From Cocleimonas sp. (GTDB lineage Bacteria; Pseudomonadota; Gammaproteobacteria; Thiotrichales; Thiotrichaceae), in contig JAZGEM010000074.1 in assembly GCA_036478745.1 (NCBI GenBank), positions 1 to 24,000 on the forward strand: a stretch of 24,000 bases of DNA, read 5' to 3'. This document shows, one piece after another, positions 3,019 to 7,459 of this stretch. Under the pieces are notes generated by a model. It ran no database searches, was not told where the DNA came from, and saw only the letters and a list, made by a program, of their open reading frames with translations. Numbering within the stretch: the stretch's first letter is position 1; the number at the start of each line of letters is the position of its first letter. The position numbers and the translations under genes were made by a program.

Positions 3019-3075
3019 CAATGGCTTACAAGCACGACTAACGGTTGATTTTGGCTTATGAGCGTGTGGTTGTCC
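3019..3075 (+). repeat. 57-bp direct repeat, copy 1 (downstream of the immunity gene)
   Basis: caatggcttacaagcacgactaacggttgattttggcttatgagcgtGtggttgtcc matches 5555-5611 at 56 of 57 positions. Confidence 0.85.
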
Positions 3076-3173
3076 CGTGTTTGCTATTTTTAATCAAAAA
3101 GTGCTTGAAATTAGGGAGGTGTCCATATATGTCCTTTGTTTCGGGTTGTTTTTAACAAGCATAAGTCATTGTT

Positions 3174-3566
3174 TTAATTATCAATCGAATCTGACCCCTT
3201 TGATTTTATAAGCTTGAACAGATTTATACCGTTTGTCTCTATTAAACTAACTCCAAGTTGTAAACAATTTCTATACTTAGATGGATCAATCTCATGCCCA
3301 TCAAAAATTTCATGTAGAGTAGATTTATCTATTTTTCCGAACATTAAGTCGATTTCTAGTTTCGTATACAATTCTTCTACTATACAAAAAGCCTCTTCTT
3401 TTTGTTTTTTATTTAGATCAGATACATCACCAAACAAATGATTAAATAACACAGCTAAACTACCCCATTCTTCTATCTCTTCTTCATTCAGTTCCGCATC
3501 AACTATCATCTGTTTAAACCCACCGTCAAAATAGAATCCTATTATTTTATCAATGTATTGAATCAT
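3174..3566 (-). CDS. Putative immunity protein for the RHS C-terminal toxin (130 aa, acidic)
   Basis: Its start codon overlaps the rhs stop codon by 1 nt (position 3566, ATGA). It is a small acidic protein directly after a polymorphic-toxin gene. No recognisable family. Confidence 0.6.
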   Translation of the reverse strand: MIQYIDKIIGFYFDGGFKQMIVDAELNEEEIEEWGSLAVLFNHLFGDVSDLNKKQKEEAFCIVEELYTKLEIDLMFGKIDKSTLHEIFDGHEIDPSKYRNCLQLGVSLIETNGINLFKLIKSKGSDSIDN

Positions 3567-5335
3567 TACTTAACCTCAGCTAAAAAACTCTTTCTGCCTT
3601 TTCTAACATACCTTGTTAAGCTTTCTGGGCCTTTTAGTTTGCAAAACTTATCAACTATTTTAGAAGTTCTTAATAGTGCTTTATATAACTGCTTTCTACC
3701 ATTCCTAGTCATCGTTTTTGATGACCAATCTTCTTTACTCGTCCAGTTACCTTTTCCATTTAACTCTGGTGTGTTTTTAAGTACAACATGCAATACAAAA
3801 TGAACCATTCTGTGTGTTTCTGCAGGAAGAAATAATAATGCTTGATTAGGATCACCACCTAAGTTTTTGGGAATTGTATGGTGTCCATGATTTCCATCTC
3901 CTGTATATTGTTTCTTAATATATGAAACACCTACAAAACATCCGATTTTTTTAGTTACTCCTCCCTTTCCAGATACAGTAAATCTGGTATATTGGCCTAC
4001 AGAATTTGTCCCCAGTCTTGCGCCTATATTTAATCCAGACATGAGGTTACTCATTGTAAAATACCCACTGGGATCTATACCATTGACAGGATTTGAGTCT
4101 GTATATATATACTTATTTAGAGTGATTGGGCTACATATCTTTCCCAGCCACTCATCCTGCTGAGTAAACCGCCCAACCCCTTGATCATAATACCTAGCTC
4201 TTAAGTAATATTGCCCTAAGTTTTGATCAAACTGCTCACCCGCAAACAGATAATCATTAACAGTAACACCCGTCTGATTCAGCACCTCACCAAAGGCTTC
4301 ATAATTGTATAAGTCTGTAAATGCACCTGTGCTGTCACTCAAAGCCCTCGTAGAACCCAGCCCATCATAATGATAAGTATTAGTCGTACCATTTCTAGTT
4401 TGACTAAGCAAATCATCACCATAGGTATAGCTAACCGTAGTAGCATTATTCGAGCGCTCTTCAATCACCTGAGCATAAGCCCGATTGCTGTCAACAATAT
4501 ACTGCGTGGTTTCTGATCCCGTGGTTTGGGCTTCTCTTATACCATCGGCATTGTATTGATAACTTGTGGTGCTTCCTGCATTACTGGTTTCTGTCAGTTG
4601 ATTCTTTGCATTGTAGCTATACGTTTTGCTATTGCCGTCCAGTGTTTCCGTCAGGGTACTGCCGTTATTGTCATAGGTGTAGGTTGTGCCACCTTGCTGG
4701 CTTAAACGGTCGTTATCATCATAAGTGTATTGGGTTTGTACGCCGTCTACGGTTTCATAGGTTCGGTTGCCGACCTTGTCGTAGGTGTATTCTGCATTGT
4801 AGTTTCCGTTTGTGGCATCGGTGATGGTTTCAGTCTTTAAACGATTCAGATTATCGTAGCTGTAATCCGTTACCCTGCCTGTTGCCTCGGTGATCTTGGT
4901 GCGTTTTCCTGTGGCATCTAGGCTGTAGGTATACGATGAGAGTGTTGTGCCTGCACTACTTTTATGTGTGAGTGTAGTCAATCTATTCAAGCTATCGTAA
5001 ACGTAGTTATCCGTATTGCCATTGGCATGAGTGACTTTGCTTCGATTGCCGACTGCATCATAGCTGTAGCTTGTTGTGCCTATTGCATCAGTGACGGTTG
5101 AGAGTCTGTTAAGACTATCGAAGCCATAGCCGACGATTTTAATCTCTGTGCCTTTGCTAGTTTTAAGCTGGGTTCGATTGCTTTGATTATCGTATTGGTA
5201 TTCGAGCGTTGTACCGTCGACTTGGGTTTCTTTTGTCAAACGGTTTTGGGTATCGAATGTGTAGGTGGCGGTTGATGCATGACTCGCTGAAACAGTCAGT
5301 AATATAAGAATGAGGTAATAGTGAATGCTTTGCAT
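3566..5335 (-). CDS. Short RHS/YD-repeat polymorphic toxin with an N-terminal signal-peptide-like segment and a C-terminal GHH/AHH-type HNH/EndoVII-like nuclease domain
   Basis: Many YD repeats (YxYDxxGNR / YDxLNRL). The terminal core motif is RARYYDQGVGRFTQQD...NKYIYTDSNPVNGIDPSGY (aa 379-425, the PxxxxDPxGL type). The variable C-terminal domain is 164 aa and contains GNHGHHTIPK (DNA 3878-3886 = GHH) and THRMVHFVLH. The N-terminus is MQSIHYYLILILLTVSASHA|ST. Confidence 0.85.
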   Translation of the reverse strand: MQSIHYYLILILLTVSASHASTATYTFDTQNRLTKETQVDGTTLEYQYDNQSNRTQLKTSKGTEIKIVGYGFDSLNRLSTVTDAIGTTSYSYDAVGNRSKVTHANGNTDNYVYDSLNRLTTLTHKSSAGTTLSSYTYSLDATGKRTKITEATGRVTDYSYDNLNRLKTETITDATNGNYNAEYTYDKVGNRTYETVDGVQTQYTYDDNDRLSQQGGTTYTYDNNGSTLTETLDGNSKTYSYNAKNQLTETSNAGSTTSYQYNADGIREAQTTGSETTQYIVDSNRAYAQVIEERSNNATTVSYTYGDDLLSQTRNGTTNTYHYDGLGSTRALSDSTGAFTDLYNYEAFGEVLNQTGVTVNDYLFAGEQFDQNLGQYYLRARYYDQGVGRFTQQDEWLGKICSPITLNKYIYTDSNPVNGIDPSGYFTMSNLMSGLNIGARLGTNSVGQYTRFTVSGKGGVTKKIGCFVGVSYIKKQYTGDGNHGHHTIPKNLGGDPNQALLFLPAETHRMVHFVLHVVLKNTPELNGKGNWTSKEDWSSKTMTRNGRKQLYKALLRTSKIVDKFCKLKGPESLTRYVRKGRKSFLAEVK

Positions 5336-5554: not shown

Positions 5555-5611
5555 CAATGGCTTACAAGCACGACTAACGGTTGATTTTGGCTTATGAGCG
5601 TTTGGTTGTCC
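5555..5611 (+). repeat. 57-bp direct repeat, copy 2 (upstream of rhs, 24 nt after the stop of the 229-aa ORF)
   Basis: See 3019-3075. Confidence 0.85.
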
Positions 5612-5634
5612 TTTGTTTTCCCTTGTTTTCCAAC

Positions 5635-6324
5635 CTACGTTAAATCAATAATCACAGTTTCATAAAAATTGTCTTTAGGTTGAAATTTTAAAGACTGGTC
5701 ATTAATAAAAACTAATTTTGCTGGTACATTTATAATATTATTATATTCATATGTCGAATAGTCACGAAAAAGAATTTCTCTTTCTGTTAGGTCTCCTTTT
5801 GTTCCTATTAAGACATATAAATGTTTTCCTAATGAATCAAAAACATATTTCAACCTTGCTGATATTTTTTTAGATCGACTCCATGTTTTTCTCGAAGATA
5901 TTTTTGTGTAAATAAAATCTAGTTTACGTATGTCCTCTAGGTGAGTATTAACAATACATCCATCCAGACCAAATTCTGCCGGTAGATCAGCAAACACTTT
6001 TTTTAAGATTTTATAAATAACCATATTCCGATCAGATATTTTTTTACATGAAACATATTTTTCAATCGAAAATCCCACGTTAACTATTGCTACATTTGAC
6101 ATAGAGTCATATTCATAAACAGGAATAGGGTGTATTTTTTTTGTTAAAAACTCTTTAGGCCATAAATGAATAACAACTTTCCCAAATTTTGAATAAACAT
6201 TTCTTTTGAAATTTATATTCAAAGCAAATAAAATACATCTTGTCTCTGCTGTGAGTTTTTGCTCATTTGAATGTCCATAATGTGTAGAAGGACTTATTTC
6301 TACCTGCTGAAGATACTTAGCCAT
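5635..6324 (-). CDS. Hypothetical protein, 229 aa, no recognisable motif
   Basis: Long ORF in an AT-rich context. It is tightly packed with the upstream ORFs on the same strand. Confidence 0.55.
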   Translation of the reverse strand: MAKYLQQVEISPSTHYGHSNEQKLTAETRCILFALNINFKRNVYSKFGKVVIHLWPKEFLTKKIHPIPVYEYDSMSNVAIVNVGFSIEKYVSCKKISDRNMVIYKILKKVFADLPAEFGLDGCIVNTHLEDIRKLDFIYTKISSRKTWSRSKKISARLKYVFDSLGKHLYVLIGTKGDLTEREILFRDYSTYEYNNIINVPAKLVFINDQSLKFQPKDNFYETVIIDLT

Positions 6325-6415
6325 TTATTTCACCATTATTATTTACATACTGGACGAAGATTTCCATCAGGATTTCTTTTATGCTGTCCATAAAACTTAC
6401 CACAGACCCAACCAT
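6317..6415 (-). CDS. Possible 32-aa bridging ORF (MVGSVVSFMDSIKEILMEIFVQYVNNNGEING), or a frameshift scar
   Basis: Its ATG starts 2 nt after the stop of the 276-aa ORF. Its end overlaps the ATG of the 229-aa ORF by 8 nt. No SD seen. Confidence 0.2.
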   Translation of the reverse strand: MVGSVVSFMDSIKEILMEIFVQYVNNNGEING

Positions 6416-6417
6416 AT

Positions 6418-7248
6418 TCAACTACAAGAGCTGCGTAACGTCCGGGTAAAGCTCATTGTAATTAATATTAAGGATTGCTCAGAAGAAACCGCCCAATCCC
6501 ATGCTGTTTGATTTTCTATTATGAGAGCTTTATAACTGTAGTCATTACCGTTCAACAAGGCAGATAACACAAACCCATATGCTTCTATAAATGAGTCTGC
6601 TTGTATTGTTACCTTGGATATTTTAATAAGGCCTTCGTGTAATTTTGTAGTTGCTTCAGTATTTCCTTCAAGGAAAAATGTGGTTGTAAGTTGGTGGGCT
6701 GTGTAGTTAGAAAATATTGACCATGCTTGATCAAGATCACTCATTCCTGTTACCCTTTTTCCAATGACGCCAGCAAACCAGCGATGAACAGCAGGACTGT
6801 CTTGTATCCAGTTGGCTAGAGATTCAGCATTATGTGCTCGAATATCTTTCCATAGTCCGTTATCAAGTTGTTCTTTAACCCAGTTGTCTTTTTTAGCCCA
6901 GTGTCTTGGGGAGATGAAGATATAAGTATCTTTATTTCTGTTTAATGGGGAGGCATCATTTGTTCGTTTCTCATAGTCGCTATTGGCTTTGCCTTTAACA
7001 CTTTTATCTGTACCAATTTCCCATCCTGACATTCCTTTTGGAATGTACTTGTTCCCATGCTCGCTTTTTACAATTCCATCCCAGCCTTCGTTGGAAACAG
7101 AGTCTCCAGAAGGAAAATTAACATCAGCTTTATTATCGCAAGTAAGTACCAGTCGCTTTATAAGCTCAGGCAGTAATATTTCTGCCTTCTTTTTATTTGT
7201 GGCTACCCAGTTTTTAATGTCGTTTGCTGTTATGTACCATCCTGTCAT
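6418..7248 (-). CDS. Hypothetical protein, 276 aa; Trp-rich N-terminal module of about 170 aa; possibly a truncated N-terminal part of a larger protein
   Basis: ORF track. Segments LPELIKRLV...FPSGDSVSNEGWDGIV...GMSGWEIGTDKSVKGKANSDYEKRT...YIFISPRHWAKKDNW look like a conserved globular domain. A PD-(D/E)xK-like D...E..K arrangement is conceivable but unproven. Confidence 0.55.
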   Translation of the reverse strand: MTGWYITANDIKNWVATNKKKAEILLPELIKRLVLTCDNKADVNFPSGDSVSNEGWDGIVKSEHGNKYIPKGMSGWEIGTDKSVKGKANSDYEKRTNDASPLNRNKDTYIFISPRHWAKKDNWVKEQLDNGLWKDIRAHNAESLANWIQDSPAVHRWFAGVIGKRVTGMSDLDQAWSIFSNYTAHQLTTTFFLEGNTEATTKLHEGLIKISKVTIQADSFIEAYGFVLSALLNGNDYSYKALIIENQTAWDWAVSSEQSLILITMSFTRTLRSSCS

Positions 7249-7459
7249 GTGTTTAACCGATTTTTTGTAATGAAATAATTTCCACAGTATTTGATATTGT
7301 AAGACATCATATAAAGTTGTCTATATATAAAAAATATTAAACAACAGCTTTGAATTACTGGCAAATATTTAAATCTCTCTCATTCACTCTTTTGACTAAC
7401 AAGAGGGAGAGAGTTTTATGTAGCATGTATTTTTTAAAATTATATAGTAAACCTTGGAA

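What the first reader, a model, noticed from the sequence alone, without database searches (positions are those of the whole stretch)
5635..7248. Tightly packed orphan operon (276 aa, 32 aa, 229 aa) with no recognisable domains, adjacent to a toxin-antitoxin-like pair: candidate novel defence or abortive-infection module
Three minus-strand ORFs are almost contiguous. The stop of the 276-aa ORF (6418-6420) is followed after 2 nt by an ATG opening a 32-aa ORF, whose end overlaps the ATG of the 229-aa ORF by 8 nt. The 276-aa protein has a Trp-rich, well-formed N-terminal module (LPELIKRLV...GWDGIV...GWEIGTDK...SPRHWAKKDNW...ANWIQDSPAVHRWF). This could be a PD-(D/E)xK-like or other effector or sensor domain of the kind found at the N-termini of large NTPase defence proteins, but no P-loop follows here. 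The 229-aa protein matches nothing I recognise. The location fits a defence-island context: inside a tRNA island, divergent from a wHTH-MNT/HEPN pair, and next to a polymorphic toxin. Alternatively, the 276-aa ORF is the stump of a larger gene whose 3' part was replaced; short continuations exist in two other frames around 6330-6450.
Basis: inference. Interest (0 to 1): 0.65.

Follow-up and report, generated by a model that had tools for sequence, protein, structure and literature searches.

The report
Gene stump, toxin remnant, orphan immunity
The supposed three-gene "novel defence operon" is a recombination scar: the first fifth of a large, broken nuclease-like gene is joined to the tail end of a lost bacterial toxin gene, followed by that toxin's still-intact antidote (immunity) gene, which is a familiar kind of leftover in bacterial toxin loci.

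Summary
(1) The 276-aa ORF is the N-terminal 268 codons of a widespread ~1260-aa protein family. There are 3141 representative homologues, and 102 of the best 150 are at least 1000 aa. All alignments stop at residue ~268, and the other ~1000 codons are absent from the window and from 10 kb on either side. (2) From window 6443 down to 5639 the DNA is 84% identical to a cassette found in two independent Logan contigs. That cassette consists of the last 34 codons of a Tox-URI2 (PF15653) polymorphic-toxin nuclease gene plus the downstream 229/230-aa gene. The last 8 codons of the 276-aa ORF and the whole 32-aa ORF are off-frame readings of this toxin remnant. (3) The 229-aa gene is intact and under purifying selection (dN/dS 0.27). 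In its only other known occurrence it sits 12 nt after a complete Tox-URI2 ORF, so it is best read as an orphan immunity gene of a new, very rare family. It lies directly upstream of an RHS toxin and its own immunity gene, inside a ~14-kb tRNA-Leu island. Immunity function is inferred from gene position only.

The parts
6444..7248 (-). Native part of the 276-aa ORF: codons 1-268 of a ~1260-aa protein family (phrog_18693-like). It contains the complete conserved N-terminal restriction-endonuclease-like domain (about residues 1-170) and the start of the next domain. This is a truncated stump.
   Evidence: phmmer against 1.84 billion representatives gave 3141 hits. Query residues 1-268 align to residues 1-270 of proteins of 1245-1270 aa. 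PHROG profile positions 3-196 of 1258 are matched. tblastn of four full-length members finds only residues 1-268/273, at window 7251-6439, and nothing else in the window or 10 kb either side. The AF2 model has pLDDT 88-96 over residues ~10-160.
6339..6443 (-). 3' remnant (last 34 codons plus stop) of a Tox-URI2 polymorphic-toxin nuclease gene, reading GRYAALVVEYGWVCGKFYGQHKRNPDGNLRPVCK*. It has no start codon and an in-frame stop three codons upstream. The N-terminal three quarters of the domain, where the Y and KxG motifs would lie, are missing.
   Evidence: blastn: window 6443..5639 matches L002 399..1198 at 84% identity. tblastn: L002 toxin residues 72-107 match window 6449-6342 at 69% identity, E 2.7e-14. 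The L002 toxin hits PF15653 with E 1.7e-16. Motifs are taken from PMC3482391.
6418..6443 (-). Tail of the 276-aa ORF (about 8 codons, ...TLRSSCS*), which is the toxin remnant read in the wrong frame. This is the junction between the stump and the cassette.
   Evidence: Three-frame translation. Family alignments end at residue 264-273. The DNA alignment shows homology to L002 starting here.
6317..6421 (-). The 32-aa (ATG) or 34-aa (TTG) ORF. It is not a gene but a second off-frame reading across the toxin remnant and the toxin-immunity spacer.
   Evidence: Its frame differs from the conserved toxin frame. The same off-frame ORF (55 aa) appears in L001 and L002.
5635..6324 (-). Intact 229-aa gene, a putative orphan immunity protein cognate to the lost Tox-URI2 toxin. 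It is predicted to be cytoplasmic (no hydrophobic segment) and has an SD-like GGTGA 8 nt upstream of its ATG.
   Evidence: It has one homologue among 5.8 billion proteins (P0011, 79% identity, 230 aa). In L002 that homologue starts 12 nt after a complete Tox-URI2 ORF. dN/dS is 0.27 in frame and 0.8-1.0 off frame. Maximum Kyte-Doolittle score is 0.86, and the RBS context was read directly. GC is 0.26-0.30, against ~0.38 in the stump.
7296..7323 (-). Promoter-like site (TAGACA-16-TACAAT) upstream of the stump. It is the likeliest source of transcription through the stump and remnant into the 229-aa gene. This is inferred only.
   Evidence: Consensus scan, 10 of 12 matches. The number of such sites in the region is not above chance. 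No terminator-like site lies between it and 5635 on the minus strand except a weak one inside the 229-aa gene.
5555..5627 (.). Copy 1 of a 73-nt direct repeat, beginning 8 nt after the stop of the 229-aa gene.
   Evidence: the repeat finder family D1, 90% identity. The 42-nt core is identical in both copies and there are only two copies in the window. It is absent downstream of the gene in L001.
3566..5335 (-). RHS-repeat polymorphic toxin (589 aa) with a Sec-like signal peptide, YD repeats, an Rhs core end (...IDPSGY) and a ~160-aa C-terminal toxin region. This is the neighbouring active toxin module.
   Evidence: Pfam RHS_repeat E 6.6e-27. NCBIfam Rhs_assc_core E 8.7e-19 at residues 345-424.
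3174..3566 (-). 130-aa ORF whose start overlaps the RHS stop, a putative immunity gene for the RHS toxin. It is unrelated to the 229-aa protein.
   Evidence: Position. No family hits. No BLASTP similarity to the 229-aa protein.
3019..3091 (.). Copy 2 of the 73-nt direct repeat, 82 nt after the 130-aa gene. Together with copy 1 it brackets the RHS + immunity module (spacing 2536 nt).

Best explanation
The interval is a recombination or deletion scar inside a polymorphic-toxin locus on a tRNA-Leu genomic island. A ~1260-aa stand-alone gene, with an N-terminal restriction-endonuclease-like domain followed by about 1000 residues of largely helical sequence, was cut after codon 268. It was joined to the last 34 codons of a Tox-URI2 nuclease-toxin gene together with that toxin's downstream gene. 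The join is out of frame, so the truncated gene terminates after 8 foreign codons. The toxin remnant has no start codon and lacks most of the nuclease domain, and the 32-aa 'gene' is another off-frame reading of it. The only intact functional unit is the 229-aa gene. It most likely encodes the cognate immunity protein, which would bind and neutralise a Tox-URI2 nuclease in the cytoplasm. Kept without its toxin, it would act as an orphan immunity gene that protects the cell against related toxins delivered by neighbouring bacteria. It is probably transcribed by read-through from the stump's promoter or from a weak internal promoter. Shown here: the truncation, the toxin remnant and its frame, the extent of the cassette, purifying selection on the 229-aa gene, and toxin-then-229 synteny in an independent source. 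Inferred: the immunity function, the route of expression, and the order of events (a single deletion between two co-oriented genes is the simplest history).
For: Truncation: the homologue length distribution and alignment ends, and absence of the remaining codons. Cassette: 84% DNA identity over window 6443..5639 to L001/L002, starting 119 nt upstream of the 229-aa ATG and ending at its stop codon. The toxin frame is conserved and the protein-level match has E 2.7e-14. The L002 toxin is PF15653 Tox-URI2, E 1.7e-16. There is a GC drop across the junction. For the 229-aa gene: dN/dS 0.27, position 12 nt after the toxin ORF in L002, and no TM segment. Context: an adjacent RHS toxin with its own downstream small ORF. 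Tox-URI2 is documented in RHS-associated polymorphic toxin systems with several unrelated immunity families (PMC3482391). Orphan toxin-fragment/immunity modules in which only the immunity gene is expressed are documented in CDI and Rhs loci (PMC3150448). The locus is identical in three independent assemblies.
Against: Immunity function rests on gene position in a single other source, two ~1.2-kb contigs from sister samples. No known immunity family matches: Imm9, Imm12, Imm39 and Imm44 are all absent at E<=1. The structure prediction failed (pLDDT 35), so there is no fold evidence. Unlike classical orphan modules, the remnant keeps no DPxGL/core sequence, lies upstream and not downstream of the RHS gene, and is fused to an unrelated gene. 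In L002 the toxin is a separate 108-aa ORF and not the C-terminus of a demonstrated delivery protein, so its export route is unknown. Expression of the 229-aa gene is untested. The stump retains a complete nuclease-like domain, so residual activity is not excluded.
Confidence: 0.75

Rival explanations
1. One reading: the 276-aa, 32-aa and 229-aa ORFs form a co-evolved three-gene operon that encodes a novel defence or abortive-infection system, with the 276-aa protein acting as sensor or effector.
For: The ORFs are tightly spaced and co-oriented. They sit in a defence-rich island next to a PADLOC candidate system, PDC-M05. The N-terminal domain has a nuclease-like fold.
Against: The tight spacing is produced by a junction between unrelated DNA segments, with the homology breakpoint at 6443. 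The 32-aa ORF is off-frame toxin sequence. The 276-aa ORF is 21% of its family's normal length. The genes do not co-occur elsewhere. Neither protein has a PADLOC hit.
Confidence: 0.04
2. The stump is not dead. The truncated 276-aa protein, with a complete PD-(D/E)xK-like domain freed from its ~1000-aa C-terminal region, is expressed and retained as a stand-alone nuclease or regulator, independently of the 229-aa gene.
For: The ORF is intact from its native ATG with a promoter-like site upstream. The conserved domain and its invariant D57/E77/K87 are complete. Shorter homologues (230-400 aa) exist in the databases. The locus is conserved in three samples.
Against: Most short homologues come from ~1-kb contigs or end in non-homologous tails, so they look like fragments or other pseudogenes. 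The three copies of the locus are 100% identical, so they say nothing about selection. The C-terminus is 8 junk codons, the second domain is cut mid-fold (pLDDT <50 from residue 266), and there is no obvious Shine-Dalgarno sequence.
Confidence: 0.12
3. The 229-aa gene is not an immunity gene. It would be an unrelated accessory or hitch-hiking gene (for example a second effector, chaperone or adaptor) that merely travels downstream of the Tox-URI2 ORF.
For: There is no similarity to any described immunity family. At 229 aa it is larger than many immunity proteins. Only one other occurrence is known. No usable structure model was obtained.
Against: A position 12 nt downstream of a toxin-domain ORF, co-inherited with the toxin's 3' end, is the standard immunity position (PMC3482391, PMC3150448). 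The gene is retained intact under purifying selection after its toxin was destroyed, as expected for orphan immunity and not for an adaptor or chaperone of a lost toxin. Immunity families are notoriously diverse: four unrelated families are already known for Tox-URI2.
Confidence: 0.15

Closest known systems
Orphan toxin-CT/immunity modules of Rhs and CDI loci (Poole et al. 2011, PMC3150448) and orphan immunity genes in general (e.g. PMC10539506, PMC12247911)
   Same: A toxin-gene fragment without translation signals is followed at once by an intact small gene. The module is shared with another organism, where it follows a complete toxin domain. It sits next to a complete RHS toxin with its own immunity gene, and the immunity gene is maintained by selection.
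   Different: The remnant is only the last 34 codons of the toxin domain and keeps no DPxGL/core sequence that could serve for re-loading. The module lies upstream and not downstream of the RHS gene. Its 5' side is fused out of frame to an unrelated truncated gene. Immunity activity has not been tested.
Tox-URI2 (PF15653) polymorphic-toxin nucleases and their immunity families Imm9, Imm12, Imm39 and Imm44 (Zhang et al. 2012, PMC3482391)
   Same: The partner toxin in L002 is a clear Tox-URI2 member (E 1.7e-16). According to that paper, the family is linked to RHS repeats and occurs in gamma-proteobacteria.
   Different: The window holds only a non-catalytic tail of the toxin. The 229-aa protein matches none of the four described immunity families and has one known relative, so it would be a fifth, very rare immunity family.
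Unannotated ~1260-aa protein family (phrog_18693; e.g. members in Marinobacterium stanieri, Photobacterium aquimaris, Vibrio hannami, Methanosarcina)
   Same: Residues 1-268 of the 276-aa ORF are collinear with the N-terminus at 31-47% identity.
   Different: The window copy lacks about 1000 C-terminal residues. Full-length members are solo genes with no conserved neighbour.
N-terminal Mrr/PD-(D/E)xK nuclease effector domains of large defence proteins (Avs4, PDB 8dgf; Can2; MspJI/AspBHI)
   Same: The predicted fold of residues ~10-160 gives these as its best structural matches. An invariant D...E...K triad is present. The architecture is a nuclease at the N-terminus of a long helical protein.
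   Different: The Foldseek scores are weak (E 5e-3 to 0.1, TM 0.3-0.4). No STAND/P-loop NTPase motif is present in 96 of the 97 family members longer than 1200 aa. There are no PADLOC matches, and a defence role for the family is untested.

Membership tests
Orphan toxin-fragment/immunity module of a polymorphic toxin locus | Toxin-domain coding fragment lacking its own start codon and delivery region | tested here: met
   Only toxin residues ~74-108 are present, with a stop three codons upstream in frame and no ATG.
Orphan toxin-fragment/immunity module of a polymorphic toxin locus | Intact small ORF immediately downstream of the toxin fragment, co-inherited with it | tested here: met
   The 229-aa ORF starts 14 nt after the remnant's stop. 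One 805-nt block (6443..5639) is homologous to L001/L002. dN/dS is 0.27.
Orphan toxin-fragment/immunity module of a polymorphic toxin locus | The same module is attached to a complete toxin domain in another genome | tested here: met
   L002 carries a complete 108-aa Tox-URI2 ORF 12 nt upstream of the 230-aa orthologue.
Orphan toxin-fragment/immunity module of a polymorphic toxin locus | Located in the locus of a full-length polymorphic toxin (classically downstream of it) | tested here: inconclusive
   It is adjacent to an RHS toxin plus putative immunity gene (3174-5335), but upstream of it. A 73-nt repeat follows both modules.
Orphan toxin-fragment/immunity module of a polymorphic toxin locus | Fragment retains the conserved core/demarcation motif (DPxGL or VENN) that allows re-loading by recombination | tested here: not met
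   The remnant begins deep inside the toxin domain, and the sequence upstream of it belongs to the unrelated 1260-aa family.
Orphan toxin-fragment/immunity module of a polymorphic toxin locus | Immunity protein specifically neutralises the cognate toxin | not testable with these tools
   This needs co-expression and binding assays. The AF2 model was too poor (pLDDT 35) for any structural inference.
Tox-URI2 (PF15653) functional toxin | Complete URI-fold domain with the Y, KxG and [EQ] motifs | tested here: not met
   The window retains only the part that aligns to L002 toxin residues 72-107, which corresponds to about Pfam profile position 66 onward of 86. The Y and KxG region is absent.
Known Tox-URI2 immunity families (Imm9, Imm12, Imm39, Imm44) | Significant match to the family profile | tested here: not met
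   The 229-aa protein has no Pfam family at E<=1 and none in NCBIfam, PADLOC or PHROGs beyond noise.
~1260-aa phrog_18693-like family (as an intact member) | Full-length collinear protein of ~1245-1270 aa | tested here: not met
   Only residues 1-268 are present, and the remainder is absent within the window and 10 kb either side.
PD-(D/E)xK / restriction-endonuclease-like fold (N-terminal domain) | alpha-beta-beta-beta-alpha-beta core with conserved acidic and lysine residues, and structural similarity to known members | tested here: inconclusive
   The secondary-structure order fits and the model is confident. D57, E77 and K87 are invariant. The top Foldseek hits are almost all such nucleases, but at E 1.4e-3 to 0.1 and with none at or below 1e-3. 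There is no Pfam hit.
Known anti-phage defence systems (PADLOC-DB 2.0) | Match of either protein, or of full-length relatives, to a defence-system model | tested here: not met
   The 276-aa and 229-aa proteins have no hits. Among the 11 sequences of alignment A3 (ten full-length members plus the window protein), only one faint PD-Lambda-4_A hit appeared (E 3e-4).
STAND/AVAST-type NTPase defence proteins | P-loop (Walker A) NTPase domain after the N-terminal effector | tested here: not met
   No G-x4-GK[ST] motif in 96 of the 97 family members longer than 1200 aa. No NTPase Pfam or NCBIfam hit.

The most novel reading that the evidence does not exclude
The scar may have been domesticated. In this reading the stump's promoter and its free-standing PD-(D/E)xK-like domain are retained together with the 229-aa protein as a new two-gene unit, for example a nuclease held in check by, or co-operating with, the former immunity protein. 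That would give the island a defence or addiction function that neither parent module had. A related, more probable but off-locus reading is that the parent ~1260-aa family (3141 representative clusters in bacteria, archaea and phages; nuclease-like N-terminus, no NTPase, no annotation) is an unrecognised single-gene defence family.
Probability: 0.05. Interest if true: 0.6.

Novelty: new member of a known kind. Interest (0 to 1): 0.25.

Why it matters
This result removes a false lead: the compact "orphan operon" is an artefact of a junction between unrelated segments. What remains is modest. The first item is a probable fifth immunity family for Tox-URI2 nuclease toxins. It is extremely rare (one relative among 5.8 billion proteins) and is kept under selection after its toxin was lost, which adds an example to the growing picture of orphan immunity genes as defences in inter-bacterial warfare. 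The second is a clear case where a toxin/immunity cassette ended up fused to an unrelated gene rather than to a conserved toxin core. Separately, the analysis flags a large, widespread, unannotated protein family with a nuclease-like N-terminus that may deserve study in genomes where it is intact.

Tried and rejected
1. Pfam, NCBIfam, PADLOC and PHROGs scans of both proteins gave nothing for the 229-aa protein. For the 276-aa protein only phrog_18693 matched.

2. AlphaFold2 of the 229-aa protein with its two-sequence alignment gave pLDDT 35, which is unusable, so I ran no fold search on it.

3. I looked for more copies of the cassette. The indexed protein search found one relative. The toxin search found only itself. 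A JGI metagenome scan with peptide patterns from the 229-aa alignment found nothing. A scan with a 21-nt conserved stretch of the toxin 3' end also found nothing.

4. I considered that the 1260-aa gene was merely interrupted by an insertion, and rejected this. No trace of the remaining ~1000 codons exists in the window or in 10 kb of flanks.

5. I considered a conserved partner gene for the full-length family and rejected it. Clustering of flanking ORFs across 24 loci showed shared neighbours only among closely related Methanosarcina contigs. No relative of the 229-aa protein occurs in any of these loci.

6. I considered membership of the full-length family in PD-Lambda-4 or in the STAND NTPases and rejected both. 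The PD-Lambda-4_A hit appeared in 1 of 11 sequences scanned, and a Walker A motif in only 1 of 97 members longer than 1200 aa. The PDB sequence search found nothing.

7. I considered that the 73-nt repeat is an RNA element or terminator. It has no Rfam hit and no unusual fold.

8. The promoter scan found no more sites than expected by chance, so expression statements remain inference.

9. I tried to reconstruct the rearrangement that links the L001 arrangement (cassette co-oriented with the MNT promoter) to the window arrangement. The contigs are too short for this.
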